Source of the DNA: Treponema rectale
Lineage (GTDB): Bacteria > Spirochaetota > Spirochaetia > Treponematales > Treponemataceae
Direction: 5' to 3'
NCBI RefSeq assembly: GCF_014202035.1
Contig: NZ_JACHFR010000003.1
Location: 311,223 to 375,222 of the forward strand
DNA: 64,000 nucleotides
The translations under genes and the position numbers were made by a program. Of the stretch, positions 1-62,717 are shown piece after piece. Each line of letters opens with the position of its first letter. Position 1 is the stretch's first letter. Below the pieces are notes generated by a model, which ran no database searches, was not told the origin of the DNA, and saw only the letters and a program-made list of their open reading frames with translations.

Positions 1-255
1 ATGAAGGATATTAAGTAAAACTGTTACCGGAAAAAAGTAAACGGGATAAAGGTTGAATATCATATAAAATTAAGTAAAACTGTTACCACTTTATTCACCT
101 GCAGAATGAAAGATATTAAGTAAAACTGTTACCGGAAAAAAAAGTAAACGGAATAAGGGTTGAATATCATATAAAATTAAGTAAAACTGTTACCGCTTTA
201 ATCAGCTTAAGCAGGATGAAAGATATTAAGTAAAACTGTTACCGGAAAAAAAGTC
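1..255. repeat. Tandem repeat, ~108-bp unit x ~2.4 copies, reaching the window edge; each unit holds two copies of the imperfect palindrome GTAAAACTGTTAC
   Basis: Units start near 1, 107 and 216. TTAAGTAAAACTGTTACC recurs at 11, 71, 117, 177 and 226. The third unit is truncated where the 38-bp hairpin repeat begins. Confidence 0.7.
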
Positions 256-35650: not shown

Positions 35651-37450
35651 ATGAAAAAGTATGGAAAAATTACCGCACTCATTGCTGGTGTGGTACTGGC
35701 ACTCGGTTTTGCTTCCTGCAAGGCTGATACAGATGATGGCAGCACCTTTTACACTGTCACATTTAATTCAATGGGCGGCACAGAAGTTTCAAGTCAGAGC
35801 ATTGAAAGCGGAAATAAGGCCACAAAACCTGTCGATCCTACAAAAACGGAAACCGCAACGGAAGGATTTGTTTTTGCTGGCTGGTACACTTCCACAGACA
35901 GAGGAACAACTCTTTCAGAAACAGCATTTGATTTTAACACAGCGATTAAAGGAGACATTACGCTTTATGCTAAGTGGACAGTAAATGCAGTTACACACAC
36001 AGTGACTTTTGACACAAAAGGCGGAAGCACGTCTCCTGCGGAACAGACAATCGTCCACGGAAAAAAGGCCACAAAACCCGCTGACCCTACAAAAGCGGAA
36101 ACCGAAACGGAAGCATTTGTTTTTGCTGGCTGGTACACTTCCACAGACAGGGGAACAACTCTTTCTGATACCGCTTTTGATTTTGACACAGCGATTGAAG
36201 AAGACATTACGCTTTACGCAAAGTGGACAGAAAATGCAGTTACACACACAGTGACTTTTGACACAAAAGGCGGAAGCATGTCTCCTGCGGAACAGACAAT
36301 CGTCCACGGAAAAAAGGCCACAAAACCCGCTGACCCTACAAAGCAGGCTACAGAAACAGAAACTTATATCTTTGACAACTGGTACACTTCCACAGACGGA
36401 GGAGCAACCCTTTCAGAAACAGCATTTGATTTTGACACAGCGATTAGTGATAACATTACGCTTTATGCAAAGTGGACAGTAAATGTAGTTACACACACAG
36501 TGACTTTTGACACAAAAGGCGGAAGCACATCTCCTGCGGAACAGACAATCGTCCACGGAAATAAGGCCACAAAACCCGCCGATCCTGCAAAAACGGAAAC
36601 CGAAACGGAAGCATTTGTTTTTGCTGGCTGGTACACTTCCACAGACGGAGGAACAACTCTTTCTGATACCGCTTTTGATTTTGACACAGCGATTACTGAT
36701 AACATTAGCCTTTACGCCAAATGGAATGTATACACAATTGAGTATATTGAATTAAAAGATTGTTCTGCAATACGCACAATGTTTGAAACTCTGTGTGAAT
36801 TTAGTGGTAGTGTTTTTGATTACAAATTCAAAAAAACTATTACCAGCTTTGCAAAGGCAGATGCAAGGCCTGAAGCTGCAGAAAACTATATTGATGCGGC
36901 AGGAAATCAAATTCCTTTGTGGTATGATGAAGGAAAAACAACTCTCTATTATTACCTTGAGCCCGGAAAAAAAATGAGCCTCAGGACATCAGATGGTAAA
37001 AACTCCCTTTTCAAATATATGGTTGATGCTGTTTCCATAGAAACAGGTGATTTTGACACCAGCAATGTTACTGATATGAGTTCGATGTTCAGCAACTGCC
37101 GTGCATTGACATCACTGGATGTGAGCAAGTTTGACACCAGCAAGGTTACTGATATGAGCTATATGTTCAGCAACTGCCGTGCATTGACATCACTGGATGT
37201 GAGCAGCTTTGACACCAGCAAGGTTACTGATATGAGCGATATGTTCTTCAATTGCCAGGCATTGATAACAATCATTGCTTCTGAAAAGTTTGTTACAGAT
37301 AAAGTGACGGAATCTAGCGACATGTTTAAAAACTGCGCCAGTCTTAAGGGCGGTGCAGGAACAGTGTTTGACGAATATCATATTGACAAGAAATATGCCC
37401 GCATAGACGGCGGCACGAAAAAACCTGGCTACTTTACTAAAAAGCAATAA
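35651..37450 (+). CDS. Surface lipoprotein with four Listeria-Bacteroides-type repeats and C-terminal DUF285/BspA-like repeats
   Basis: Lipobox LGFASC. Four ~250-bp tandem DNA repeats. FDTSNVTDMSSMFSNCRALTSLDVSKFDTSKVTDMSYMF repeats. Confidence 0.75.
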   Translation: MKKYGKITALIAGVVLALGFASCKADTDDGSTFYTVTFNSMGGTEVSSQSIESGNKATKPVDPTKTETATEGFVFAGWYTSTDRGTTLSETAFDFNTAIKGDITLYAKWTVNAVTHTVTFDTKGGSTSPAEQTIVHGKKATKPADPTKAETETEAFVFAGWYTSTDRGTTLSDTAFDFDTAIEEDITLYAKWTENAVTHTVTFDTKGGSMSPAEQTIVHGKKATKPADPTKQATETETYIFDNWYTSTDGGATLSETAFDFDTAISDNITLYAKWTVNVVTHTVTFDTKGGSTSPAEQTIVHGNKATKPADPAKTETETEAFVFAGWYTSTDGGTTLSDTAFDFDTAITDNISLYAKWNVYTIEYIELKDCSAIRTMFETLCEFSGSVFDYKFKKTITSFAKADARPEAAENYIDAAGNQIPLWYDEGKTTLYYYLEPGKKMSLRTSDGKNSLFKYMVDAVSIETGDFDTSNVTDMSSMFSNCRALTSLDVSKFDTSKVTDMSYMFSNCRALTSLDVSSFDTSKVTDMSDMFFNCQALITIIASEKFVTDKVTESSDMFKNCASLKGGAGTVFDEYHIDKKYARIDGGTKKPGYFTKKQ

Positions 37451-37592: not shown

Positions 37593-38069
37593 CTACGATT
37601 CATTCACCAGCTTACCGGTCATGTGCTCAATTTCAAGTTCAAGGCACTGAACGCGGGGGAGGGCGTTTGCCAGTTCCTTTTCAAGATAATCCTGGTCATC
37701 TGTGAATTTCTGAACCAGCTTTGTACAGATTTTGCGGGTAAGGTCTGGGTCAGTTACCAGACGAATTTTTCCAAAGACGATTACACTGTTGATGTTCAGT
37801 GCCCATTCGCCTTCCTTGCGGTAGCCCGAATCGTAAACGCAGAAACTTGCCTTGTCGTAGTTTTTGATGGCATCAATTTTGTGGCCTTCTTTTGCGCCGT
37901 GAAAATAAATCTTATTGTCTTCTTCGCTGTAGAAGTGGGAGAGAGGAAGTCCGTAAGGGTAGCCGTCATCACCGAGCAGAGAAAGAACTCCGCGTTTTTC
38001 ATTTTTCAAAATCTCTTTACATTCAGCGTCTGTAATCTGCTGCTTGAATCTTCTCATTGGTCGGAACAT
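37593..38069 (-). CDS. Pyridoxamine 5'-phosphate oxidase-family FMN-binding protein
   Basis: PNPOx-like split-barrel motifs (GVLSLLGDDGYPYGLPLSHFY). Confidence 0.7.
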   Translation of the reverse strand: MFRPMRRFKQQITDAECKEILKNEKRGVLSLLGDDGYPYGLPLSHFYSEEDNKIYFHGAKEGHKIDAIKNYDKASFCVYDSGYRKEGEWALNINSVIVFGKIRLVTDPDLTRKICTKLVQKFTDDQDYLEKELANALPRVQCLELEIEHMTGKLVNES

Positions 38070-38252
38070 ATATTTACTCCTATTTCTTATTTATAAAATA
38101 CAGCCCTGCAAGGCAGATTGCAACTCCTAAAACCTTGCTCCAGCTGATGCATATAGGGAATAGAAAAATACCAGGAGTTCAGTTTCCAGAATTTACAAAC
38201 AATTTACACATATTAACTGTAATATTTTAGTTCATAAAGTTATAGTAAAAAT

Positions 38253-40226
38253 ATGATAACTGTAATAAGCCAGATTTTAGGATTTATTGGTTCTCTCTGC
38301 CTGCTGCTTTTTGGAATGGAGATGCTTTCGAACGGTATTCAAAAGGGAGCTGGAAACAACTTGCAGTCTTTGCTTCATAAGATTTCCGGGAACAGATTTA
38401 CAGCTGTGTTAACAGGGCTTGCGGTTACAGCAATAATTCAGTCTTCCGGCGCAACTACTGTAATGGTTGTCAGTTTTGTAAATGCCGAGATTATAAGCCT
38501 TACACAGGCCATTGGAATTATTTTTGGTGCAAATATCGGAACGACAGTTACGGCCTGGATTGTTTCTTTTTTTGGCTTTTCTTTCAGTATTGAGGCAGCG
38601 GCAATTCCTTTATTTGGTTTTGGATTCATTCTTAAATATTTTAAAAAGTTTAAGATACATAATTTTGCTGACTGTTTCATGGGCTTTGCGCTTTTATTCA
38701 TGGCGCTGGGCCTTCTTAAAAACTCAATGAATTTAAAACCTGATTCCGTAAGCTTTTTACAGAAATTTCAGGATTTGAATTTTGCGGGTCTTCTGCTTGG
38801 AGTTTTAATCGGAACTGTTTTTACTGCCCTGATTCATTCTTCTTCTGCTACTACAGCGATAGTACTTACAATGTCTGCAAACGGTTCTCTTCCATGGGAG
38901 CTTGGAGCTGCTATGGTGTTAGGAAGCAACATCGGATCTACAGTGGATGCAGTTATGTCATCTTTGGGTGCAAGCGTTAATGCTAAACGTACTGCCGCTG
39001 TTCATGTGGCCTTTAATGTTACGGGAACTTTAATAGCCCTGCTTTTCTTCCAGCCATTCTTAAATCTGATTGATTTAATTGTTCCGGGCACTCCAATTCA
39101 GAATATTACAATTCATATTGCCATGCTTCATACTGTCTTTAATATTTTGGCTGCACTGCTCTTCCTGCCTTTTGTAAAACAGATTGCTTCTATAACAGAA
39201 AAAGTGATTCATGAAAGCCAGAAAGAAAAAGATGCTCATTATAAAATCCCTATCATCCTTCCAAAAAATCATGTCAGTAAGGACTTGTATACTTTTCAGG
39301 TTCAGAAAGAAATTACAAAAATGGCCGGCCGTGTAATGGACATGATGGGTTATCTGAATCAGGGGCTTAATCAACAAAGGGATATGGCTATTTTAATTGA
39401 CGAAATTAATGCTCAGGAAGAATATGTTGATGAAATGAATCATGAAATTTCCTGGTTCCTGCAGAAGTGTTCCCGACTTCCAACTGCAAATCATAGTGAC
39501 CGGAATAATTATTCCAGTATGATTTCTGTAATTCAGAATCTTGAAGATTTAAGTGATGAATGCTGTTCAATAATGCATTCACTTTGTAAGTTCAAAAAAA
39601 ATGCAGAGTCAGAATCTTTTAAAAATCATACAGAGGAACTTATTGAATATTTTAATCAGGTATATATTTTTTATGAACAGACCTGTACTTATATAGCGCT
39701 TGGTCTTTCTGAAATTGATAAAGTACTTTTATCTGATGTGGAAGATAGAATCGACAGTACAAAGCGGGAACTTAAGAAAGCAAGTCGTAAGCGAATTGAA
39801 AACGGCAGTAATGTAAAAGCTGAACTTAATTACATGGATTTAGTCCGCAAAATTGAAAAAGCCGGAGACTGCATTTTTGGAGTAATTCAGGCTATTCAGC
39901 CTAATGTTGAAGACTCTGTTCTGGCAGATGGTTCTGAAAAAAATCTTATTAGCGCGCAGAATGTAATTATCAATACAAAAAGCAGAAAGGCTTTTGTATC
40001 AGGAAAAGAGGTTCTGCTTGCAGTAAAAGAATATGAACTGCTCGCTCTTCTTATGAAAAATAAAGGACAGGTTCTTACCCGTAAGCAGCTTTTGGAATCT
40101 GTATGGAATTATGATAAAGAAATAGAAAGCCGTACTCTGGATGTACATATCGGACTTTTGCGCCAGAAATTAAATAATCAGAAGTTGATTGAGACAGTAC
40201 GTGGAGTGGGGTATAGAATCTCTTAG
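38253..40226 (+). CDS. Fusion protein: Na/Pi-cotransporter-like membrane domain (NptA/YjbB type) + PhoU-like region + C-terminal OmpR/PhoB-type winged-helix DNA-binding domain
   Basis: Duplicated IQSSGATT / IHSSSATT Na_Pi_cotrans motifs. C-terminal TRKQLLESVWNYDKEIESRTLDVHIGLLRQKL...ETVRGVGYRIS matches trans_reg_C. Confidence 0.7.
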   Translation: MITVISQILGFIGSLCLLLFGMEMLSNGIQKGAGNNLQSLLHKISGNRFTAVLTGLAVTAIIQSSGATTVMVVSFVNAEIISLTQAIGIIFGANIGTTVTAWIVSFFGFSFSIEAAAIPLFGFGFILKYFKKFKIHNFADCFMGFALLFMALGLLKNSMNLKPDSVSFLQKFQDLNFAGLLLGVLIGTVFTALIHSSSATTAIVLTMSANGSLPWELGAAMVLGSNIGSTVDAVMSSLGASVNAKRTAAVHVAFNVTGTLIALLFFQPFLNLIDLIVPGTPIQNITIHIAMLHTVFNILAALLFLPFVKQIASITEKVIHESQKEKDAHYKIPIILPKNHVSKDLYTFQVQKEITKMAGRVMDMMGYLNQGLNQQRDMAILIDEINAQEEYVDEMNHEISWFLQKCSRLPTANHSDRNNYSSMISVIQNLEDLSDECCSIMHSLCKFKKNAESESFKNHTEELIEYFNQVYIFYEQTCTYIALGLSEIDKVLLSDVEDRIDSTKRELKKASRKRIENGSNVKAELNYMDLVRKIEKAGDCIFGVIQAIQPNVEDSVLADGSEKNLISAQNVIINTKSRKAFVSGKEVLLAVKEYELLALLMKNKGQVLTRKQLLESVWNYDKEIESRTLDVHIGLLRQKLNNQKLIETVRGVGYRIS

Positions 40227-40269
40227 ACGGTAATTATATTTACTTTCTATTGATATAATATAATCCAGC

Positions 40270-40745
40270 ATGTCAGATTGTGATACATCAGAGAAAAAGA
40301 AATTGCGAGAGACGCAGCAATTTCCCCTGATGCCTGACCGCCCCTGCAGTCAGGAGTTTGATAATGCAGTAAATTTTTTTACATGTGTTACTCTTGACAC
40401 ATCAGGGAAAAAGAAATTGCGAGAGACGCAGCAATTTCCCCTGATGCCTGACTGCCCCTGCAGTCAGGAGACCGGATAATCATAAGAATCTTTTTTTATA
40501 TATGTTTCTCTTGACACATCAGGGAAAAAGAAATTGCGAGAAACGCAGCAATTTCCCCTGATGCCTGACTGCCCCTGCAGTCAGGAGTTTGATAATAAAG
40601 TAAATTTTTTTATATGTTACTATTGACACATCAGGGAAAAAGAAATTGCGAGAGACGCAGCAATTTCCCCTGATGCCTGACTGCCCCCGCAGTCAGGTGT
40701 TTGAAAATATAGTAAAACTTTTTTATGTGTTACTATTGACAGTAA
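40270..40745. repeat. Tandem array, ~117-bp unit x 4 copies plus a partial fifth, each with two strong hairpins
   Basis: TTGACACATCAGGGAAAAAGAAATTGCGAGAGACGCAGCAATTTCCCCTGATGCCTGACTGCCCCTGCAGTCAGGAG plus a ~40-bp variable tail. Unit starts at ~40277, 40394, 40511 and 40623. Confidence 0.8.
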
Positions 40746-40763
40746 CACATTTCTCTCTTATAC
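40735..40763 (+). promoter_or_regulatory. Candidate sigma70 promoter TTGACA-N17-TATACT in the final partial repeat unit, upstream of trpGD
   Basis: TTGACAgtaacacatttctctctTATACT lies ~60 bp upstream of the trpGD ATG. TGTTACTATTGACAGTAACA is a perfect palindrome overlapping the -35. Confidence 0.4.
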
Positions 40764-40824
40764 TGTTTCTATAAAAAGAAACAATACCTGGCGAAATTTC
40801 CGCCTGTGGTTATGGAGGAATAAT

Positions 40825-42447
40825 ATGATTGCATTTATCGACAATAAGGATAGTTTCAGTTTTAATATCGTTCAGTCTCTTGAGCGCGTTTCCGGAGATA
40901 AAGTTATGGTTTTCCGTTCAGAAGAAGCCAGCGTCGAAGAAATTGCAGCGGCATCTCCAACTCATATTGTTGTAGGACCTGGTCCCGGTACTCCGGCAGA
41001 AGCAGGAATTTCTATTGAAGCAATCAGATATTTTGCAGGTAAAGTACCACTGCTTGGAATCTGTCTTGGACATCAGGCAATAGGTGCAGCCTTTGGTGCA
41101 GAAATTGTCGGCGCCAAATACATTCGTCATGGAATCGTAGAAGAAATAAAAACTGACGGCCGCGGTATTTTCAGAATAATCGGATTAAAAGGAAACTTTA
41201 CCCGATATCATTCCCTTGTAATTGACGAAAAAACTTTGCCATCAGATTTTGAAGTTACGGCAAGAGCAAAAGACGGAGACATAATGGGGATTCGCCATAA
41301 GTCCTTTGTTCTTGAAGGAATTCAGTTTCATCCGGAAAGTATTGCCAGTGAAAAAGGTGATGCTCTCTTTAAAGCCTTTCTTAATTACAGCAGGGAAAAT
41401 ATTTCTCATGTACTTATTTTGAATCAGCTTATTGATCAGAAAAAGCCTTTGTCCCGTGAACAGACTTCAAGTTTTATTGGTGAACTTACAGACGGAACTA
41501 TGGACGAAAAAATAGCTTCTTCCATACTTACGGCAATGGCAGCCAGAGGACTTCCGACTGCAGATGAAATGGGTGGTGCTGCACAGGTAATGTTAAAAAA
41601 GAAAAAGGTCTTTCCTCTTGAAAATCACGGGCTTGCAGAAATTGTAGGTACTGGTGGAGACGGAAAAGGCAGTTTTAATATTTCATCAATGTCTGCACTT
41701 GTTGCTTCAAGCTGCGGTCAGGTTATGGCTAAACACGGTAACCGGGCTGTTTCTTCTAAGTCAGGAGCTGCGGATTTTTTTGAAGCTCTTGGAATCAACA
41801 TCATGGCAGCACCTGAAAAAACTGCAGAACTTGTAAAGAAAACAGGATTCGGATTTTTAATGGCACCGGTTTATCATTCAGCCATGCGCTTTGCTGCACC
41901 TATAAGAAAGGCACTTGGAATAAAAACAATTTTTAACGTGCTCGGTCCTCTTTTAAATCCGGCAAATGCTGAATATGAAGTTCTCGGAGTTTATTCAAAA
42001 GAACTGCTGAAAGATTATGCCCGTGCCGCAAAGTCTCTTGGAGCAAAGAGGGTAATGGTCGTAAACTCTGATGACGGTTATGATGAGATTTCTCCATGTG
42101 CATTGACCCGTGTCTTCCAGATTGATGAAAATGGAAATGAAAACCAGTACATAATTGATCCTGCAAATTTTGGAATTACTGATGCAGATGAAAACGAACT
42201 GTACGGCGGAAACGGAAGCGACAATGCAGCTCTTGCAATGGAAATATTACAGGGAAAAGGCCGCAGGACAATCCGTTATGCTGTAGGCCTTAATGCGGGA
42301 GCCGTTCTGTATCTTTGTGGAAAAGCCCGGACCTTAAAAGACGGATACGCAATGGCTCTGGATGCAATTGATTCCGGAAAGACTCTGGCAAAACTTGAAG
42401 AGATTCAGAAAGTAAGTCACGAACTGAATGGAGAGGATGTCGCTTAA
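40825..42447 (+). CDS. trpGD: Bifunctional anthranilate synthase component II (glutamine amidotransferase) / anthranilate phosphoribosyltransferase
   Basis: GATase class I (GICLGHQ, catalytic triad) followed by a TrpD domain (GTGGDG). Confidence 0.9.
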   Translation: MIAFIDNKDSFSFNIVQSLERVSGDKVMVFRSEEASVEEIAAASPTHIVVGPGPGTPAEAGISIEAIRYFAGKVPLLGICLGHQAIGAAFGAEIVGAKYIRHGIVEEIKTDGRGIFRIIGLKGNFTRYHSLVIDEKTLPSDFEVTARAKDGDIMGIRHKSFVLEGIQFHPESIASEKGDALFKAFLNYSRENISHVLILNQLIDQKKPLSREQTSSFIGELTDGTMDEKIASSILTAMAARGLPTADEMGGAAQVMLKKKKVFPLENHGLAEIVGTGGDGKGSFNISSMSALVASSCGQVMAKHGNRAVSSKSGAADFFEALGINIMAAPEKTAELVKKTGFGFLMAPVYHSAMRFAAPIRKALGIKTIFNVLGPLLNPANAEYEVLGVYSKELLKDYARAAKSLGAKRVMVVNSDDGYDEISPCALTRVFQIDENGNENQYIIDPANFGITDADENELYGGNGSDNAALAMEILQGKGRRTIRYAVGLNAGAVLYLCGKARTLKDGYAMALDAIDSGKTLAKLEEIQKVSHELNGEDVA

Positions 42448-42460
42448 ACGGGGATGGGAC

Positions 42461-43987
42461 ATGTCTGATATTCTTTCTAAAATTGTTGAGTTGCGAAGGG
42501 AAAACATAAAGCAGAACGGTTTTACTATGGGCGTAGATATTCCTTCAGAAAGACTGCGCCCTGTTCATCCTTTTTTACAGGATAAGGGAGTTATACTTGA
42601 GGTAAAGCGGGCTTCACCTTCTAAAGGAGATATTGCACCAGAACTTGATTCCTATAACACAGCTCTGTCTTATGCTGAATCAGGAGCCGGAGCAATAAGC
42701 TGTCTGACAGAGAAGAATTTTTTTAAGGGAGACCTCAGCGACTTGATGAAAGTTTGTGCTGCTGTGGATGAATATGAAAGGCAAACCGGTAAAACAGGTC
42801 CTGCTGTTTTGCGCAAGGATTTTTTAATCACCGAAGAAGACATTGATGTTGCCTGGAGGGCCGGCGCTGATGCAGTACTTCTTATCTGCAGAATTCTTTC
42901 AAAAGAGAAAATTGTTTCCATGGCAAGACGTGCAGCTTCCTGTGGAATGACTTCGCTGGTGGAAGTCCGTCTTGAGGAGGATGTAGAAAAACTTAAGCTG
43001 GTATGCGGCAGTGTTGATCCTTCTTATATTGTGTGCGGAGTTAACAGCCGGGATCTTTCTGATTTTACCATAGATTTGCTGAAACCCTGTTTCATGCTGG
43101 AAAAGATAAAAAAAGTTTTGGGACAAAATGCCCGGGTAATTTTTGAAAGCGGGATCCGTACTCCCGAAAGTGCTGCTTTTGTTTCTTCCCTTGGCTTTAA
43201 GGGACTTCTTCTTGGAGAAGCTGCGGCAAAAAATCCGTCTATACGAAAAGAACTTGTCCAGTCTTTTAAGACGTCTCTTTCTGATGCTGATGCACGTTTC
43301 TGGCTTAATTATTCTTCTTCATTCGAAGAAAGGGCAGCAAAGAAACTTCCGCTGGTAAAAATATGCGGACTTACAAATTCTAATGATGCTCAAATGGCAG
43401 TAAAAAACGGAGCTGATTTTTTAGGATTCATTTTTTATGATAAAAGTCCCCGGCATGTAAACTCTGACGAAGCAGAAAAACTTCTTGATGAATTAAAAGA
43501 AGTAAAAGCTGTTAAAGCAGGCGTTATAGTTAATCCTGATGATAAGGAAGCGCGGGTTGCCATTGATTTGTGCAGAAGGGGTAAACTTGATGTGCTTCAG
43601 CTTCATACGTTTGAATGTGCAGAGAAATTTATTTCGGATAAAAATTTAAGAGTGCTTCCTCATTATGCAGCTATAAACATTTCTTCACAGGAAGATGTAA
43701 AGAAACTGGACTTTCTTTTTGATATGGGAGAGCCGAGAGTGCTTGCAGATGCTGCTGTAAAGGGAACTGCAGTCGGCGGAACAGGAAACTGTATTGATGA
43801 AAATTTAGTTAAGGCTGTTCAGAAAAAGTATCCTTTATGGATTGCAGGCGGTCTTACTCCCGATAATGTCAGGTCTGTCGTTTCTAGTTTCAATCCTGAG
43901 CTGATTGACTGTGCAGGGGGAGTTGAAGAAGTTCCCGGTAAAAAAAGTTCAATTAAACTCGAAAGTTTTTTTTCTGAATTGAAATAA
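42461..43987 (+). CDS. trpCF: Bifunctional indole-3-glycerol-phosphate synthase / phosphoribosylanthranilate isomerase
   Basis: TrpC N-terminal half (ILEVKRASPSKG), TrpF C-terminal half (VKICGLT). ORF open from 42428. Confidence 0.9.
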   Translation: MSDILSKIVELRRENIKQNGFTMGVDIPSERLRPVHPFLQDKGVILEVKRASPSKGDIAPELDSYNTALSYAESGAGAISCLTEKNFFKGDLSDLMKVCAAVDEYERQTGKTGPAVLRKDFLITEEDIDVAWRAGADAVLLICRILSKEKIVSMARRAASCGMTSLVEVRLEEDVEKLKLVCGSVDPSYIVCGVNSRDLSDFTIDLLKPCFMLEKIKKVLGQNARVIFESGIRTPESAAFVSSLGFKGLLLGEAAAKNPSIRKELVQSFKTSLSDADARFWLNYSSSFEERAAKKLPLVKICGLTNSNDAQMAVKNGADFLGFIFYDKSPRHVNSDEAEKLLDELKEVKAVKAGVIVNPDDKEARVAIDLCRRGKLDVLQLHTFECAEKFISDKNLRVLPHYAAINISSQEDVKKLDFLFDMGEPRVLADAAVKGTAVGGTGNCIDENLVKAVQKKYPLWIAGGLTPDNVRSVVSSFNPELIDCAGGVEEVPGKKSSIKLESFFSELK

Positions 43988-44046
43988 AAAATAAGGTGTA
44001 CATCAAATATTTTTTTTAGAATTTGATGTACACCTTATTTTTTTTA
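43986..44046. terminator. Bidirectional rho-independent terminator between convergent genes
   Basis: AAGGTGTACATCAAAT...ATTTGATGTACACCTT perfect 16-bp stem flanked by A- and T-runs. Confidence 0.75.
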
Positions 44047-44062
44047 TTACTGTCTTTTAATT

Positions 44063-44652
44063 TCAGTTGTACTTTGGAACTGTTTCGTTTCCGTCATAAT
44101 CATAGAAGGTTATGTTTTTAATATAGACCTGCGTTCCTTTATCGTTAAGATCCCTTACACCGCCGATCATAAAAAGATAATCGGTTTTTGATTTCATGTG
44201 GTTAAGGTCAATGCTGTACTCCTTGAAGTTTGGAGTTACATCTATTTCGTTTTTCTGATTATTGTCAAAGTTCATGTAGAAAGTTCCGTAAGAACTTGCC
44301 TTTGCCTCGAAAGTAACTTTTGCGATGTCAGAAAGATTAAGGGTTGCTCCGTTAGGAATGCCGTTGTCGTAGCATCCGAAGGATCCTCCCCACCATCCCA
44401 CGTTTCCTACAGTAATGCATCCGCCTGTGTAGTCAATGTCAAAAGTCATTTCGTGTGCACCCCATTCATTCTGCCAGATCTGAACTCCGCATCCTGGAAA
44501 TGTTTTAAACAGAACGCTTTTTTCTCCGCTTCCTGTATTTGAGTATACCGGAGGATTGTTGGCATAAGAAACAGATTCCTGTTTTGAAGATGCACAGCTG
44601 CCTAAAAAGAGAGCAGCCATTGCTGTTACTGCAATAATTGTTTTTTTCATGA
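44063..44652 (-). CDS. Lipoprotein, putative carbohydrate-binding (CBM-like beta-sandwich)
   Basis: Lipobox LFLGSC; start at MKKTIIAV with GGAG RBS. Confidence 0.5.
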
Positions 44653-44687
44653 TAAACTCCTGTAAATATTTTATTGTAGATTTATGA

Positions 44688-46037
44688 CTATTCAATTGTA
44701 AACCAGTAGAATTTTGCTGTCCGGGCATTTCCCAGAGTTTTAATCTGAAGTTCCCGGATGCCTTCACTCAGTTCAGCTTCAAGTGTTACAGTCTTCCATT
44801 TTCCTTTTGTTGAAGGAATTTCTTTCTGTACTATTTCTTTTCCGTCTGCACTTATTATGTAAAGTTCCTCCCTGTCAGTCATGATGCGCAGGCTTACTGT
44901 ATATTTTTTTGAAGAAGGAATATTAACTTTATAGTTGGCAAATCTTTTATTAGAAAAGTTTCCCAGCTCAAGAGGAATTTTCTTGTACAGTTTTTTATCT
45001 CCCCTGTCTGTTGCCGGAGCGATTCCTACAGGTGTGTTGAACCGGATTCCGTCGTCACATTTTTCTCCTACAGTTGTGTTGTAGTTGCTTGATGATGAAT
45101 ATTCATATGCAGGAATTACTTCTCCTGCTGTAAAAGTTTTGCTTCTGCTTACATCTGTCATGTAGAGATAGACTTTTCCTAAATCCGTAAGACTTCCGTC
45201 AGAACCTTTTTTTGTAAATACAGAATTGTATGGAATTTTTTCTGCTTCTGCGTGGGACATGAACCAGGCGTAACCTTCTACGATTTCTTCCGTATCCATT
45301 GCTTCTACTTTCTGTGTCATTGCAGTAATCTGTTCATTCTTATCCTGATGAGGAATCTGGTTAGGATCCTGATCCCATGCACAGAATTCCGTAAGGAGAA
45401 CTTTTTTATTGTATCTGTTTCCGTAGGTGCTGCAGAACCACATTACGGCAGAAGGGTAATCCATGTAGCTGTGGAGTACGAGATAATCATATCTCGGTTC
45501 TTTGTTTTTATTAAGTTTTTTGTATTCTGAGATGAATTCATCCATCCATGCTTCCGGTGCGCCATATATTTTTCCGTCAGAAAGAGGTTCGAATCCCCAG
45601 GTCAGTGCAGGACCTGCAAGTTCTACTTTGTATTCTTCCGCAATCTGTTCAAGTACAGGCCATTTTTCTGCGGCTTCCTTCGGTGTCAGGGCACATCCTC
45701 CGTACTGAGCTTTCATCATTGGTTCATTAAACCCCAGAAGGCATTTTACGTTTTTGTTTGCGGCAAGATATTCCTTTGTGCGGGTAACCATTTCATCAAA
45801 ATCTTCTCCGGCACCCCATATCATAGGCATGAATTCAATCTTATGGTCAGGACCTATTTTATCTTTTCCCGGATTCTGATACCAGTTGTAGGCCCATGTA
45901 ACATTACTTTCTTCCAGTGTTTTTATTTCGCTCTCCGTAAAACTGTTGTAGCACATTCCCCGCTTTGCAGGTGAAGGCAGGCTGAATGAGAGAAAGGTTC
46001 CTGATAATAAAAGTGCAGCCGTTAAAATTTTTTTCAT
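44688..46037 (-). CDS. Secreted glycoside hydrolase, 'glycosyl hydrolase catalytic core' (PF11790-like) with C-terminal CBM-like domain
   Basis: KRGMCYNS...LLGFNEP...VLLTEFC motifs; paralog of 55020..56663. Confidence 0.7.
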   Translation of the reverse strand: MKKILTAALLLSGTFLSFSLPSPAKRGMCYNSFTESEIKTLEESNVTWAYNWYQNPGKDKIGPDHKIEFMPMIWGAGEDFDEMVTRTKEYLAANKNVKCLLGFNEPMMKAQYGGCALTPKEAAEKWPVLEQIAEEYKVELAGPALTWGFEPLSDGKIYGAPEAWMDEFISEYKKLNKNKEPRYDYLVLHSYMDYPSAVMWFCSTYGNRYNKKVLLTEFCAWDQDPNQIPHQDKNEQITAMTQKVEAMDTEEIVEGYAWFMSHAEAEKIPYNSVFTKKGSDGSLTDLGKVYLYMTDVSRSKTFTAGEVIPAYEYSSSSNYNTTVGEKCDDGIRFNTPVGIAPATDRGDKKLYKKIPLELGNFSNKRFANYKVNIPSSKKYTVSLRIMTDREELYIISADGKEIVQKEIPSTKGKWKTVTLEAELSEGIRELQIKTLGNARTAKFYWFTIE

Positions 46038-60620: not shown

Positions 60621-60680
60621 ATCAGAGATTGACAGGTTCATGATAATAATGTTACTATAAATAGAAACATAGGAGAGTAT

Positions 60681-61946
60681 ATGTCTTTTTCTGATAATGG
60701 ATTTTTCGGACAGTTCGGTGGAAAGTATGTTGCTGAAGTACTCAGACGGCCGCTTGATGAACTTGAAATTGCTTTTAAGGAAGCCATGGCAGATCCTTCA
60801 TTTCTTGAGGAACTGCAGCAGATTCAACGTGATTATATAGGAAGGGAAACCCCTCTTTTACATGCAGAGACGGCTTCAAAAATTTTAGGCGGTGCCCAGA
60901 TTTACATAAAGCTGGAGGGACTTGCAAATACCGGAGCACATAAAATTAACAATGCCATAGGTCAGTGTCTTCTTGCAAAACGCATGGGAAAGAAACGCAT
61001 TATTGCAGAGACTGGTGCCGGGCAGCATGGAGTTGCTACAGCCGCAGCCTGTGCTAAACTGGGGCTGGATTGCACGGTCTACATGGGAGAAGTTGATGTC
61101 AGGCGTCAGCAGCCTAATGTTGCGGCAATGGAACTGTACGGAGCAAAAGTTCATTCTGTTACTTCCGGCAGCAGGACATTAAAAGATGCTGTAAACGAAG
61201 CGATGCGTGATTGGGCTGCAAATCCTGATACTACCCATTATGTTCTTGGAAGCGCCCTTGGACCTGCACCGTTTCCGGATATCGTCAGGGAATTCCAGAG
61301 TGTAATCGGAAAAGAAGTTAAGAGGCAGGCGGAAGAACGGCATCTTGATGTAGAAGCACTTATTGCCTGTGTGGGCGGCGGATCCAATTCAATAGGTTTT
61401 TTCTCACCGTTTATAGATGAACCTGGTCCCCGCCTTATAGGTGTAGAAGCCGGAGGAATTGGTCCCGGTATCGGTGAAAATGCAAGCCGCATGACAGGAA
61501 ATGCAAGCCGGGATGGAATTCTTCAGGGATATAAAAGCCGTTTTCTTATTGATGAAGACGGACAGGCACTTTCAACCCGTTCCATAAGTGCAGGTCTTGA
61601 TTATTGCGGTATTGGTCCGCAGCTTGCTGCCCTCGGAAAATCAGGACGGGTTGAATTTACATCTGCTCTGGATAAAGAAGCACTGGAAGCTGTAAAGTTT
61701 TTTGCAAAAAATGAGGGAGTTCTTTTTGCCCTCGAAAGCGCTCATGCAGGAGCAGAAGCTATTAAGCTTGCACCAACCCTTTCTCCTGAAAAAGCAATAA
61801 TTGTAAATATGAGCGGAAGGGGAGATAAGGATGTCTTTATTACCAGTCCCGTATTCAGGCCTGAAAAGTGGCTGGATTTCCTTCATGCAGAAATAGAACG
61901 GCTTGAATCAGATAAAGACATTCATGAAGCAAAAATAATGGAATAG
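60681..61946 (+). CDS. trpB: Tryptophan synthase beta chain
   Basis: FGQFGGKYV, HTGAHKINNA and GGGSNSIG PLP-binding motifs. Confidence 0.9.
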   Translation: MSFSDNGFFGQFGGKYVAEVLRRPLDELEIAFKEAMADPSFLEELQQIQRDYIGRETPLLHAETASKILGGAQIYIKLEGLANTGAHKINNAIGQCLLAKRMGKKRIIAETGAGQHGVATAAACAKLGLDCTVYMGEVDVRRQQPNVAAMELYGAKVHSVTSGSRTLKDAVNEAMRDWAANPDTTHYVLGSALGPAPFPDIVREFQSVIGKEVKRQAEERHLDVEALIACVGGGSNSIGFFSPFIDEPGPRLIGVEAGGIGPGIGENASRMTGNASRDGILQGYKSRFLIDEDGQALSTRSISAGLDYCGIGPQLAALGKSGRVEFTSALDKEALEAVKFFAKNEGVLFALESAHAGAEAIKLAPTLSPEKAIIVNMSGRGDKDVFITSPVFRPEKWLDFLHAEIERLESDKDIHEAKIME

Positions 61947-61955
61947 GGGAATAAA

Positions 61956-62717
61956 ATGGAACAGAAAATAAATCTTATGAGTCATCTTGTTGCAGGTTAT
62001 CCGACTGATGAACTTGCATTTACAGCTGCAAAGGCTCTTGTTGACGGAGGTGCTGCAATTTTAGAGATACAGCTTCCGTTTTCAGATCCAAGTGCTGACG
62101 GTCCTGCAATTCAGGGTGCCTGTAATGAAGTGTTAAAGCGCGGTTACCGTACTAAGGACGGTCTGGCATTTATAAAAAGAATTCATGAAGCTTTTCCTCA
62201 GGTTTCCATATATCTCATGAGTTACGGCAGTCTGGTTTATACTCCAGGAATAAAAAATTTCTGTTCAAGAGCAGCGAGTTCCGGTGTAAACGGCATGATT
62301 ATACCTGATCTTCCTTTTGATTATGATGAAGGGCTTACAGCTGCCTGTAAAGAAAACGGAATGGTGAATATTCCTGTAGCAGCGCCTTCAATGTCCCCTC
62401 AGCGTCTGGAAAAACTTGCGGGGGCCGGTTTTCCTTATGTATATGCAGCCCTGCGTACTGGAATTACAGGAACAGATACCAGAATCAGTGAAGAAACTAT
62501 TTCTTTTATAGAAAAACTGCGGAAGGGTGGAAGCAGAATTTACGGAGGGTTTGGTATTTCCAGCGGAAAACAGTCTGCTGCACTTTCAGGTCATGTAGAA
62601 GCTGTTGTTGCCGGAAGTGTTTTTGTAAGGCTCATAACGGAAAATGCCTCCAGTGAAGAAGCTCTGTATCAGGCTGTAAAGAATAAAGCACTGGAACTTA
62701 CTGGATGCAATAAATAA
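61956..62717 (+). CDS. trpA: Tryptophan synthase alpha chain
   Basis: LVAGYP and LEIQLPFSDPSADGP motifs. Confidence 0.9.
   Translation: MEQKINLMSHLVAGYPTDELAFTAAKALVDGGAAILEIQLPFSDPSADGPAIQGACNEVLKRGYRTKDGLAFIKRIHEAFPQVSIYLMSYGSLVYTPGIKNFCSRAASSGVNGMIIPDLPFDYDEGLTAACKENGMVNIPVAAPSMSPQRLEKLAGAGFPYVYAALRTGITGTDTRISEETISFIEKLRKGGSRIYGGFGISSGKQSAALSGHVEAVVAGSVFVRLITENASSEEALYQAVKNKALELTGCNK

What the first reader, a model, noticed from the sequence alone, without database searches (positions are those of the whole stretch)
40270..40765. 4.x-copy 117-bp tandem array with two strong hairpins per unit, ending in the trpGD promoter
Each unit is TTGACA + CATCAGGGAAA..(24 nt)..TTTCCCCTGATG (11-bp arms) + CCTGACTGC-CCCT-GCAGTCAGG (9-bp arms) + a ~40-bp AT-rich tail. 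The units are 85-95% identical. Only the fifth, partial unit carries a proper -10 (TTGACA-N17-TATACT, overlapping the perfect palindrome TGTTACTATTGACAGTAACA). The others have TTGCGA at the -10 position. So the array duplicates the promoter-proximal region four times upstream of tryptophan biosynthesis genes that lack trpE and any recognisable T-box or TRAP leader. The units could be regulator-binding decoys or sites, a cruciform-prone element, or copies of a small structured RNA. The hairpins are conserved between units while the tails vary.
Basis: seen in the sequence. Interest (0 to 1): 0.6.

Follow-up and report, generated by a model that had tools for sequence, protein, structure and literature searches.

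The report
Amplified double-hairpin module before trp promoter
Upstream of the tryptophan genes trpGD-trpCF of the gut spirochaete Treponema rectale, a ~113-bp module (a strongly conserved double hairpin, an AT-rich tract and half of the promoter's operator) is repeated four times; the hairpin part is an unclassified conserved non-coding element linked to trp promoters, and its function is inferred, not shown.

Summary
Window 40280-40741 holds four head-to-tail units of 112-117 bp. Each unit is TTGACA, a two-tier hairpin (hp1), a perfect 9-bp hairpin (hp2) and an AT-rich tail. Only the last TTGACA is followed by a -10.

New findings:
- That last promoter is a conserved Treponema trp promoter flanked by two palindromic operators (TGTTWCT-N6-AGWAACA). 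A third operator precedes trpBA at 60650.
- Each unit ends in the left operator half plus the -35, so the array is an amplification of the region just upstream of this promoter.
- The unit is not dispersed. Outside this species group I found it in one other species, Treponema sp. RUI111, upstream of both a solitary trpE (1 copy) and trpGD (at least 2 copies).
- Copy number is 4, 2 or 0 among T. rectale-like strains.
- The 69-nt hairpin core is about 90% identical between the two species. Fourfold-degenerate sites of trpGD are 54% identical and the tails about 55%. Two hp1 pairs carry compensatory changes, so the core is under selection.
- It matches no Rfam family. It lacks a canonical U-tract and has no conserved promoter of its own.

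Best guess (about 0.4): an RNA 3'-end or insulator structure for read-through from the upstream gene, amplified by unequal crossing-over. Rivals are auxiliary protein-binding DNA sites, small RNA genes and a recombination-prone element.

The parts
40280..40393 (+). Unit 1, the distal and degenerate copy. GTGATA replaces TTGACA. hp1 is 40286-40332, hp2 is 40333-40354, the tail is 40355-40393.
   Evidence: It has two transitions in stems (G to A in hp1, T to C in hp2). The plus-strand fold is -23.8 kcal/mol and the minus-strand fold is -32.7.
40394..40510 (+). Unit 2. TTGACA is 40394-40399, hp1 is 40400-40446, hp2 is 40447-40468, the tail is 40469-40510 and is the most diverged of the tails.
   Evidence: Covariance-model hit of 108.8 bits.
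40511..40622 (+). Unit 3. TTGACA is 40511-40516, hp1 is 40517-40563, hp2 is 40564-40585, the tail is 40586-40622.
   Evidence: Covariance-model hit of 115.0 bits.
40623..40735 (+). Unit 4, the proximal copy. TTGACA is 40623-40628, hp1 is 40629-40675, hp2 is 40676-40697 with loop CCCC. The tail, 40698-40735, runs into the left half of operator O1.
   Evidence: Covariance-model hit of 115.2 bits. It shares the CCCC loop and the GGTGTTT 3' flank with the RUI111 units.
40728..40747 (.). Operator O1, the perfect palindrome TGTTACTATTGACAGTAACA. It contains the -35 hexamer TTGACA at 40736-40741.
   Evidence: It is conserved upstream of trpE or trpGD in other Treponema species.
40759..40764 (+). -10 hexamer TATACT of the only complete promoter, 17 nt after the -35.
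   Evidence: 11 of 12 matches. It is conserved in L013, L014, L027, L030 and L035.
40764..40783 (.). Operator O2, the perfect palindrome TGTTTCTATAAAAAGAAACA, immediately after the -10.
   Evidence: The block TATACTGTTTCTATAAAAAGAAACA is identical in L013, L027, L030 and L035.
40784..40824 (+). Short trpGD leader with a small hairpin (GGCGAAATTTCCGCC) and the Shine-Dalgarno sequence GGAGGA at 40814-40819.
   Evidence: No Rfam leader was found.
40825..42447 (+). trpGD: anthranilate synthase component II fused to anthranilate phosphoribosyltransferase.
   Evidence: Pfam GATase plus Glycos_transf_3. It is 100% identical to the Treponema rectale protein.
42428..43987 (+). trpCF (IGPS plus PRAI), the last gene of this transcription unit. 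A long bidirectional terminator follows it.
38253..40226 (+). Upstream co-directional gene: a fusion of Na/Pi cotransporter, PhoU and an OmpR-type wHTH domain. No terminator lies between its stop codon and the array.
60629..60669 (+). Second trp promoter in the window. TTGACA is at 60629-60634 and a third perfect operator, TGTTACTATAAATAGAAACA, is at 60650-60669. It lies upstream of trpB (60681-61946) and trpA (61956-62717) and is preceded by a canonical hairpin plus T10 terminator.

Best explanation
**What it is (shown).** The array is a locus-specific tandem amplification of the ~113 bp that lie immediately upstream of a conserved, repressor-type trp promoter.
- The promoter is TTGACA-N17-TATACT. 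One palindromic operator (O1) overlaps the -35 and a second (O2) abuts the -10.
- Each repeat unit holds a 69-nt double-hairpin core (hp1 plus hp2), an AT-rich UP-like tract, and the left operator half together with the -35.
- The repeat junction falls in the middle of O1. Only the last copy meets the right operator half and the -10, so only there is a complete promoter.

**How it arose (inferred).** A first duplication formed between the similar sequences GTGATA|CATCAG and TTGACA|GTAACA. Unequal crossing-over then expanded or contracted the array, giving 4, 2 or at least 2 copies at trpGD and 1 copy at trpE of RUI111.

**What the core does (inferred, not shown).** The core is a selected, hairpin-forming element. 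I think it most likely acts in RNA on the + strand.
- Transcripts that read in from the co-directional upstream gene fold into hp1-hp2.
- These structures would stop or 3'-protect the transcripts. That would insulate the operator-controlled trp promoter from read-through.
- Extra copies would add redundancy.
- The extra -35 and half-operator copies are passengers of the duplication.
For: **Anatomy.**

**Conserved promoter and operators.** The same module stands upstream of trpE or trpGD in at least six other Treponema lineages and upstream of trpBA in this window.

**Same junction in a second species.** RUI111 has the junction TTGACA|CATCA.

**Copy number.** There are 4 units in the window and 2 in L027 and L034, where the intergenic region is 370 nt against 598 nt. 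L013 has at least 2 units and L014 has 1.

**Selection on the core.**
- Within arrays, cores differ at 0-4 of 69 positions and tails at 5-17 of 44-49.
- Between species, the core is 89-90% identical. trpGD fourfold-degenerate sites are 54% identical (n = 224) and the tails about 55%.

**Hairpin rather than plain palindrome.** 98% of cells are paired. Two hp1 pairs carry double compensatory changes (G-C to A-U and A-U to G-C). Slid controls give 27-51% paired.

**Position and orientation.**
- The core begins 59 nt after the stop codon of the co-directional Na/Pi-PhoU-wHTH gene here, and 15 nt after the stop of a co-directional GH43 gene in L014. No other terminator intervenes.
- The equivalent place holds other GC-rich hairpins in strain L030 and a canonical terminator at the trpBA promoter.

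**Not dispersed.**
Against: - hp2 is followed only by (A/U)GUUU, and by no U-run at all in unit 2. Clear terminators of this genome have 5-7 T in the next 8 nt.
- No unit passes the terminator scan.
- About 90% sequence identity, including the loops and the hp1/hp2 junction, is more than a generic terminator needs.
- L036 has a different double hairpin upstream of the same promoter although its upstream gene is divergent.
- Both stem mutations of unit 1 are A.C mismatches on the + strand but G.U pairs on the - strand. This is weak evidence: the chance probability is 0.25.
- Strains L030 and L038 and several species do without the core.
- No expression data exist.
Confidence: 0.4

Rival explanations
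1. The cores are double-stranded DNA sites for an auxiliary regulator, or decoy and titration sites. A dimeric protein would bind the hp2 palindrome CCTGACTGC-N4-GCAGTCAGG, and perhaps the hp1 arms, about 40 bp upstream of the -35. It would modulate the trp promoter, and extra copies would add cooperative or titrating sites.
For: - hp2 is a perfect 9-bp dyad whose 4-bp spacer is the only part that varies (CCCT, CCCC, TCCC).
- It sits at a nearly fixed distance from the -35: 38, 39, 41 and 43 bp in four proximal units.
- Sequence conservation is high, about 90% against 54% at neutral sites.
- It is linked to two different trp promoters in RUI111 that have different upstream genes.
Against: - hp1 shows compensatory changes that keep base pairing. 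These are expected for a folded strand, not for half-sites read by a protein.
- hp1 arms are 31 nt apart and have an asymmetric internal loop.
- Distal copies more than 150 bp from the promoter are equally conserved, and a 112-117 bp spacing is not helically phased.
- No candidate regulator is consistently adjacent. The wHTH fusion gene is absent next to L014.
- The same promoter and operators work without the core in many genomes.
- The extra operator pieces are half-sites only.
Confidence: 0.2
2. Each unit is a small RNA gene or an independent structured RNA. It could lie on the + strand (hp2 as terminator) or on the - strand (promoter formed by the GTAACA half-operator plus a -10 in the AT tail, ending at the inner hp1 stem plus U5). 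That would give a tandem sRNA array comparable to LhrC1-4 or NsiR1.
For: - The fold is strong and the core is conserved.
- Minus-strand promoter-like sites GTAACA-N16/17-TATATT or TATTAT lie in the tails of units 3 and 4 and of L027 unit 1.
- Both stem changes of unit 1 preserve the minus-strand fold as G.U pairs: -32.7 against -23.8 kcal/mol.
- The minus strand carries CUUUUU after the inner hp1 stem in T. rectale and in L014.
Against: - On the + strand the TTGACA copies are followed by TTGCGA, which matches the -10 consensus at 1 of 6 positions. First units and the L014 unit have no TTGACA at all.
- No promoter-like site on either strand flanks the cores in the RUI111 loci.
- The minus-strand U-run is lost in RUI111 unit a, which reads UGAUUCCC.
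- AT-rich tails give -10-like hexamers by chance, and GTAACA is simply the operator half-site.
- There is no Rfam relative. The best match is YenS at 33 bits against a gathering score of 80.
Confidence: 0.15
3. The core is a recombination-prone or recombinase-recognised hairpin element that marks and drives rearrangement of trp promoter cassettes. Tandem copies, deletions and context swaps would be its footprint, and it would have no role in expression.
For: - The region just upstream of this promoter has at least three different contexts within one 90%-identity TrpGD cluster.
- One deletion endpoint lies inside hp2 at an ACTGCC microhomology.
- trp genes are fragmented into separately promoted pieces in T. 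rectale, RUI111 and L036. In L002-L009 a tyrosine recombinase gene follows trpGD.
- hp1 has an outer stem, a one-sided unpaired spacer, an inner stem and a variable tip. This loosely recalls folded attC sites.
Against: - No recombinase or transposase was found among the window ORFs scanned.
- The attC core motifs RYYYAAC and GTTRRRY are absent from the arms (seen in the sequence).
- The element is not dispersed.
- The deletion junction is ordinary microhomology.
- Conservation of about 90% across species needs selection, which a passive hotspot does not explain.
Confidence: 0.1
4. The array is a non-functional by-product: a neutral slippage or unequal-crossover repeat kept homogeneous by gene conversion. 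Metagenome assemblies may have partly collapsed or expanded it.
For: - Short-read assemblies break at the array. L001, L028, L029, L032 and L033 all start inside or just after it.
- Copy number differs among assemblies.
- Some strains lack the array.
Against: - Gene conversion would homogenise whole units, yet tails are 11-35% diverged and cores 0-6%.
- The core is about 90% identical between species whose neutral sites are 54% identical.
- Two independent assemblies (ENA L027 and JGI L034) agree on a 2-unit array.
Confidence: 0.1

Closest known systems
Intrinsic (Rho-independent) terminators and insulators placed between a co-directional gene and the next promoter, including tandem terminators
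   Same: - It has a GC-rich perfect stem-loop (hp2: 9 bp, tetraloop) preceded by a second hairpin.
- It lies right after the stop codon of a co-directional gene and just before an AT-rich promoter-upstream tract.
- Other strains and loci carry ordinary terminator hairpins at the same place.
   Different: - There is no U-tract of the kind seen at clear terminators of this genome.
- Its sequence is conserved far beyond what structure alone needs.
- It is repeated together with a promoter fragment.
- It is linked specifically to trp promoters in two species.
Tandem sRNA gene arrays (Listeria LhrC1-4, Nostoc NsiR1, Vibrio Qrr). This comparison rests on my own knowledge of those systems.
   Same: - Head-to-tail units of about 110 bp.
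- Each unit has a conserved structured core and a more variable spacer that contains promoter-like sequence.
   Different: - Those units each have a verified promoter and a U-tract terminator.
- Here no unit-specific promoter is conserved and no U-tract is present.
- The repeat boundary cuts an operator in half, which points to duplication of a promoter-upstream segment.
REP/BIME and MITE-like intergenic palindromic repeats
   Same: - Short, strongly folding extragenic palindromes.
- They lie at the 3' ends of genes and are sometimes clustered.
- They are capable of stabilising or ending transcripts.
   Different: - It is not dispersed. There are no other copies in the 64 kb, and in the RUI111 MAG it occurs only at the two trp loci.
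- There are no terminal inverted repeats or target-site duplications.
- All copies face the same way.
Operator or iteron arrays upstream of amino-acid biosynthesis promoters, such as the multiple TyrR boxes of E. coli aromatic genes. This comparison rests on my own knowledge.
   Same: - Several dyad-symmetric sites lie upstream of an aromatic amino-acid promoter that also has core operators.
   Different: - The repeated dyads (hp1, hp2) differ in sequence from the operators O1 and O2.
- The extra operator pieces are half-sites.
- hp1 shows RNA-like compensatory changes.
- No binding protein is known.

Membership tests
Any Rfam family (T-box, trp leaders, known sRNAs) | Covariance-model score at or above the family's gathering threshold | tested here: not met
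   There are 0 matches at gathering thresholds in the whole window. With permissive filters on 40150-40900 the best match is YenS at 33 bits against a gathering score of 80. That match spans two units and is an artefact of the repeated hairpins.
Intrinsic terminator | Stable GC-rich stem-loop | tested here: met
   hp2 has 9 perfect pairs, 6 of them G-C, and a 4-nt loop. hp1 has 8 + 8 pairs.
Intrinsic terminator | U-rich tract (at least 5 U in 8 nt) directly after the stem | tested here: not met
   The tails read AGUUUGAU, AGACCGGA, AGUUUGAU and UGUUUGAA. No unit passes the scan. Clear terminators of the same window have 5-7 T of 8.
Intrinsic terminator | Lies downstream of a co-directional transcription unit | tested here: met
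   It lies 59 nt after the stop of the gene at 38253-40226 (+), and 15 nt after the stop of the GH43 gene in L014. The context in L013 is unknown because the contig ends there.
Dispersed extragenic repeats (REP/BIME, MITE) | Many copies scattered over the genome | tested here: not met
   - No other copy in the window by pattern search, BLAST or covariance model.
- Among GTDB species-representative genomes, only the RUI111 MAG matches, and only at its two trp loci.
- The complete T. rectale genome could not be searched. It gave no hit, and the tool's documentation says some stretches are masked.
Tandem sRNA gene array | Each unit has its own promoter | tested here: not met
   - On the + strand, TTGACA is followed at N17 by TTGCGA.
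- On the - strand, 9-of-12 promoter-like sites occur only in some T. rectale and L027 tails and in none of the RUI111 loci.
Tandem sRNA gene array | Discrete transcripts of unit size | not testable with these tools
   No transcriptome data are available, and no relevant paper was found.
5'-leader riboswitch or attenuator (single or tandem) | Lies between the promoter and the regulated gene | tested here: not met
   All cores lie upstream of the only complete promoter, 38 bp or more before its -35.
Protein-binding operator or iteron array | Dyad or direct-repeat sites with conserved arms and a free spacer | tested here: inconclusive
   hp2 fits: its arms are invariant and its spacer varies. hp1 fits poorly, because its arms are 31 nt apart and show compensatory changes.
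Protein-binding operator or iteron array | A cognate DNA-binding protein | not testable with these tools
   The adjacent wHTH fusion gene is not linked to the unit in RUI111. No TrpR-like gene was found among the scanned window ORFs.
Integron attC site | R''/R' core sites RYYYAAC and GTTRRRY, and a nearby IntI integrase | tested here: not met
   The arms read CATCAGGG/CCCTGATG and GAAATTGC/GCAATTTC. No integrase was found among the window ORFs scanned.

The most novel reading that the evidence does not exclude
The 69-nt hp1-hp2 core is a previously undescribed, sequence-specifically recognised cis element or small RNA dedicated to tryptophan-gene control in gut and rumen Treponema. It could be, for example, the docking site for a second trp regulator, or an RNA that binds or sponges an RNA-binding regulator. 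Its dosage would be tuned by tandem copy number (1, 2 or 4).
Probability: 0.3. Interest if true: 0.65.

Novelty: new variant of a known kind. Interest (0 to 1): 0.5.

Why it matters
**A testable regulatory architecture.** Nothing appears to be published on trp control in this group: a full-text search for Treponema with tryptophan biosynthesis, operator and repressor returned no paper. The analysis points to three features that can be tested directly:
- a conserved two-operator promoter shared by the scattered trp genes;
- a strongly conserved double-hairpin element attached to some of these promoters;
- tandem amplification that varies between strains.

**What each outcome would mean.**
- If the core is an insulator, it shows how fragmented operons keep tight repression after being moved next to foreign genes.
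- If the core is bound by a protein or acts as an RNA, it is a new trp-linked regulatory element.

**A practical point.** The array breaks short-read assemblies and misleads gene callers; one called product is 638 aa where the real protein is 540 aa. Copy number therefore needs long reads.

Tried and rejected
- **Rfam.** Nothing at gathering thresholds. The YenS and miRNA matches under permissive filters are hairpin artefacts.
- **Metagenome scan.** The pattern GATGCCTGACNGCNNNNGCAGTCAGG gave 0 hits. Even the JGI contig later fetched as L034 was not found, so that collection evidently does not expose this region.
- **Viral scan.** The bare hp2 palindrome gave 9 hits. None has any further similarity to the unit, so they are chance matches. 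The three non-Treponema hits of the genome scan are likewise palindrome-only.
- **Plasmid BLAST.** No match.
- **T. rectale's own trpE locus.** I searched TrpE homologues and the cluster members of ten candidates. None is labelled T. rectale. Whether T. rectale has trpE, and whether a unit precedes it, stays open.
- **Covariance model R1.** It found no diverged copies in the window or in 24 related loci.
- **Leader peptide or small ORF.**
  - The 69-aa ORF at 40270-40479 is not conserved. In L027 the same ATG is followed at once by TGA.
  - The ATG inside the hp1 3' arm has no Shine-Dalgarno sequence, and its ORF has no Trp codons.
- **T-box- or TRAP-like features.** The core has no UGG specifier and no regularly spaced GAG/UAG triplets (seen in the sequence).
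- **Binding by the neighbouring wHTH protein.** This is not supported, because the unit at RUI111 trpE follows an unrelated gene.
- **Cruciform.** This is thought unlikely. hp1 has a 10-nt tip and an asymmetric internal loop, and hp2 has only 9-bp arms. The single-strand DNA fold is stable (-24 kcal/mol per unit), but that says nothing about extrusion from duplex DNA.
- **Literature.** Nothing on Treponema trp regulation or on this repeat.
Full report
**1. The observation**

The region reads as the first-stage reader described it.
- Tandem Repeats Finder finds one array at 40281-40741: period 112, 4.0 copies, 88% matches.
- The repeat finder gives four copies spaced 114, 117 and 112 bp apart.
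- A 29-mer across the junction of the two hairpins occurs four times here and nowhere else in the window; chance expectation is 0.

Each unit has four parts: TTGACA, hairpin hp1, hairpin hp2 and an AT-rich tail of about 40 nt.
- hp1 has an outer stem CATCAGGG/CCCTGATG, a one-sided AAAAA loop, an inner stem GAAATTGC/GCAATTTC and a 10-nt tip.
- hp2 follows directly and reads CCTGACTGC-CCCY-GCAGTCAGG.

Whole units fold at -39 to -42 kcal/mol as RNA, z = -6.1 to -7.6. One unit folds at -24 kcal/mol as single-stranded DNA.

The only strong sigma-70-like promoter is TTGACA-N17-TATACT at 40736-40764. The other TTGACA copies are followed by TTGCGA.

Unit 1 is degenerate. It has GTGATA in place of TTGACA and carries two stem mutations.

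**2. The organism and the genes**

TrpGD (40825-42447) is 100% identical to the Treponema rectale protein.
- trpCF follows it, and a long bidirectional terminator comes next.
- The upstream co-directional gene (38253-40226) is a fusion of a Na/Pi cotransporter, PhoU and an OmpR-type wHTH domain.
- trpB and trpA lie 20 kb downstream at 60681-62717.
- No trpE is in the window.
- Close relatives keep trpE directly upstream of trpGD. One of them (L010) has the full trpE-GD-CF-B-A operon.

The T. rectale trp genes have therefore been broken into separately promoted pieces.

**3. The promoter at the end of the array is a conserved operator-controlled trp promoter**

I aligned the last partial unit with the trpE-upstream regions of relatives. 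This shows a shared module:
- TGTTWCTATTGACAGTAACA, a palindrome I call O1, which contains the -35;
- a -10 placed 17-18 nt after the -35;
- a second palindrome, TGTTTCTWTARAWAGWAACA, which I call O2.

In the window, O1 is 40728-40747 and O2 is 40764-40783. A third perfect site lies at 60650-60669, between a TTGACA and trpB.

The same module stands in front of several other genes:
- trpGD and trpE of Treponema sp. RUI111;
- T. rectale-like strains L027, L030 and L038;
- two more species, L035 and L036.

This is the signature of a dimeric repressor controlling a trp regulon. The protein is unknown.

Every array unit ends with ...TGTTACTNTTGACA, that is, the left operator half plus the -35. The repeat junction therefore cuts O1 in the middle. 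Only the last copy continues into GTAACA, the -10 and O2.

**4. Distribution of the hairpin core**

*Scans of public collections.*
- A scan of 185,579 species-representative genomes with the hp2 pattern hit one relevant genome, the MAG Treponema sp. RUI111, on two contigs.
- The three other hits share only the palindrome.

*The RUI111 loci.*
- On L013 at least two units precede the promoter of trpGD-trpCF. They have the same TTGACA|CATCA junction. The contig ends inside the array.
- On L014 a single unit sits 15 nt after the stop of a GH43 gene. It lies directly upstream of the promoter and operators of a solitary trpE.

*Strains of the T. rectale 90% cluster*.
- L027 (ENA) and L034 (JGI) have the same neighbours as the window but only two units. 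Their intergenic region is 370 nt against 598 nt.
- L030 and L031 have no core. A different pair of GC hairpins sits at the same place.
- L038 is a deletion derivative. Its junction joins the PhoU-coding part of the upstream gene (about 39487) to the middle of hp2 of unit 4 (about 40680), through an ACTGCC microhomology.
- Several short-read contigs simply start inside or just after the array.

*Searches for further copies.*
- A covariance model built from eight units finds all known copies at 89-115 bits. It finds nothing else in the window or in any other fetched locus.
- Viral, plasmid and JGI-metagenome searches gave nothing relevant.

The element is not a dispersed repeat. It has been seen only next to trp promoters, at three loci in two species.

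**5. Evidence that the core is selected**

*Within arrays.* Cores differ at 0-4 of 69 positions, while the tails of the same units differ at 5-17 of 44-49. Most pairwise Fisher tests give p < 0.05, down to 4.5e-7.

*Between T. rectale and RUI111*:

| Region | Identity |
|---|---|
| trpGD protein | 84% |
| trpGD fourfold-degenerate sites (n = 224) | 54% |
| Tails | about 55% |
| Promoter-operator block | 80% |
| Hairpin core | 89-90% |
| 26-nt block GATGCCTGACTGCCCCCGCAGTCAGG | 100% |

*Structure counts.*
- 98% of pair cells are standard pairs. Slid controls give 27-51%.
- Two hp1 pairs carry changes on both sides: outer G-C to A-U, and inner A-U to G-C. Both are in the RUI111 lineage, so they probably represent only two events.
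- hp2 never varies, so it gives no evidence for or against pairing.
- Variation among copies is concentrated in the two loops.

I conclude that the core is a functional, hairpin-forming element. The covariation evidence is thin, and the strand is undetermined. The only strand hint is that both stem transitions of unit 1 are A.C on the + strand and G.U on the - strand (-23.8 against -32.7 kcal/mol). Chance alone gives that outcome with probability 0.25.

**6. How the array arose (inferred)**
- The sequence before unit 1 (GTGATA|CATCAG) resembles the unit junction (TTGACA|CATCAG). The sequence after the array is TTGACA|GTAACA.
- A microhomology-mediated duplication of the segment from CATCAG to TTGACA, followed by unequal crossing-over, explains the structure and the copy numbers seen: 1, 2, at least 2, and 4.
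- Proximal units share the CCCC loop and the GGTGTTT flank across species. The distal T. rectale units form their own subtype, with a CCCT loop and an AGTTTGATAAT flank. This fits expansion from distal copies.

**7. What the core does**

I favour an RNA role on the + strand as a 3'-end or insulating structure. The reasons are:
- In both loci where the upstream gene is known, it is co-directional.
- The core is the first stable structure after that gene's stop codon.
- Other hairpins, or a canonical terminator, occupy the same position in L030 and at the trpBA promoter.
- A repressor-controlled promoter benefits from protection against read-through.

The case is not strong, for these reasons:
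- The core lacks the U-tract that clear terminators of this genome have.
- Its sequence conservation exceeds structural need.
- L036 has a different double hairpin although its upstream gene is divergent.

Confidence in this mechanism is about 0.4. The rivals are:
- **Auxiliary DNA binding sites (0.2).** Favoured by the fixed distance of 38-43 bp to the -35 and by the invariant hp2 dyad. Disfavoured by the hp1 compensation and by the lack of a linked regulator.
- **Unit-autonomous sRNA genes (0.15).** Disfavoured by the absence of conserved promoters in RUI111.
- **A recombination-prone element (0.1).**
- **A neutral by-product (0.1).** Contradicted by the cross-species conservation.

**8. Comparison with known systems and novelty**

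No Rfam family matches. I tested the defining features of the following and they are not met:
- intrinsic terminators (the U-tract);
- REP or MITE elements (dispersal);
- leader riboswitches (position after the promoter);
- attC sites (core motifs and an integrase);
- sRNA arrays (a promoter per unit).

What remains is a lineage-restricted, trp-promoter-linked conserved element that has been amplified together with a promoter fragment. I rate it a new variant of a known kind, namely intergenic hairpin and promoter-upstream duplications. There is a real chance (about 0.3) that the core is a new trp-specific regulatory element.

I found no literature on it.

Interest is 0.5. The element is real, selected and unexplained, but it is restricted to a narrow lineage, it is dispensable in some strains, and it has a plausible ordinary explanation.

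Noticed in passing
window 40728-40747, 40764-40783 and 60650-60669; also L002/L006 about 2381-2436, L010 2437-2493, L014 5056-5111, L035 496-551, L036 1431-1486: A palindromic operator, TGTTWCT-N6-AGWAACA, flanks the promoters of trpGD-CF, trpBA and (in relatives) trpE. Two copies bracket the -10 at the trpE and trpGD promoters, and one copy stands at trpBA. This predicts a trp regulon under an unidentified dimeric repressor in gut and rumen Treponema. No TrpR-like gene was seen among the window ORFs scanned.
   Followed up: partly
window 38253-40226 (+): A 657-aa protein fuses a Na/Pi cotransporter membrane domain, PhoU domains and a C-terminal OmpR-type winged-helix DNA-binding domain (Pfam). 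This would be a transporter-linked one-component regulator. It is conserved in L027 and L034 and partly deleted in L038.
   Followed up: no
window 1-252: A second intergenic tandem array lies at the window edge: period 107, 2.3 copies. The 16-mer AAGTAAAACTGTTACC recurs five times at alternating spacings of about 47 and 57-60 nt, which looks like iterons. It is cut by the window start.
   Followed up: no
window 60681-62717, compared with L010 2527-9136: The trp operon is fragmented.
- L010 has trpE-GD-CF-B-A in one operon.
- T. rectale has trpGD-CF and trpBA 20 kb apart, each with its own operator-bearing promoter, and no trpE in the window.
- RUI111 and L036 have a solitary trpE.
- In L002-L009 a 421-435-aa tyrosine recombinase gene directly follows trpGD.
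   Followed up: partly
L013 3228-3380 (minus strand of the locus); L002/L006 2437-2523: Long GC-rich structured leaders lie between operator O2 and the start codon of RUI111 trpGD (about 130 nt) and of L002/L006 trpE (about 85 nt). T. rectale, whose leader is 41 nt, lacks them. They could be attenuators or riboswitch-like elements. I did not analyse them.
   Followed up: no
L036 1348-1410: A different structure sits just upstream of the same trp promoter and operators in a species whose upstream gene is divergent. It has two hairpins (GTGCUGCC-UGUC-GGCAGCAC and GUUUUGC-UUAC-GCAAAAC) enclosed by a closing stem. It folds at -32.8 kcal/mol, z = -3.4.
   Followed up: partly
L030 1-140 (MAG GCA_017634695.1): In a T. 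rectale-like strain the array is replaced by an unrelated, strongly structured stretch of three consecutive hairpins (-35.6 kcal/mol, z = -4.5). It lies at the very start of an 85-kb contig. It has no Rfam match; the best is TLS-PK5 at 24.8 bits against a gathering score of 70.
   Followed up: partly
L038 2435-2860 compared with window 37887-40680: One metagenome contig of the same 90% TrpGD cluster carries several deletions relative to the window. One runs from inside the PhoU-coding region to the middle of hp2 of unit 4, at an ACTGCC microhomology. The trpGD/trpCF junction is also altered. This is either a decaying strain or an assembly chimera.
   Followed up: partly
L034 3001-4917 (JGI gene call; proteins P0123 and P0127): A public gene call extends TrpGD by 98 residues, to 638 aa, by reading through the leader, the operators and part of the array. 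This is an annotation artefact caused by the absence of in-frame stops.
   Followed up: yes
window 35809-36695: A 249-nt coding tandem repeat (3.6 copies, 87% matches) lies inside a 620-aa surface-type protein that has Listeria-Bacteroides repeat (Flg_new) and DUF285/BspA-type LRR domains.
   Followed up: no
window 43988-44041: A 21-bp perfect-stem bidirectional terminator (-25.7 kcal/mol), flanked by A and T runs, lies between the convergent trpCF and the gene at 44063-44767. It is a good reference for what canonical terminators look like in this genome.
   Followed up: yes
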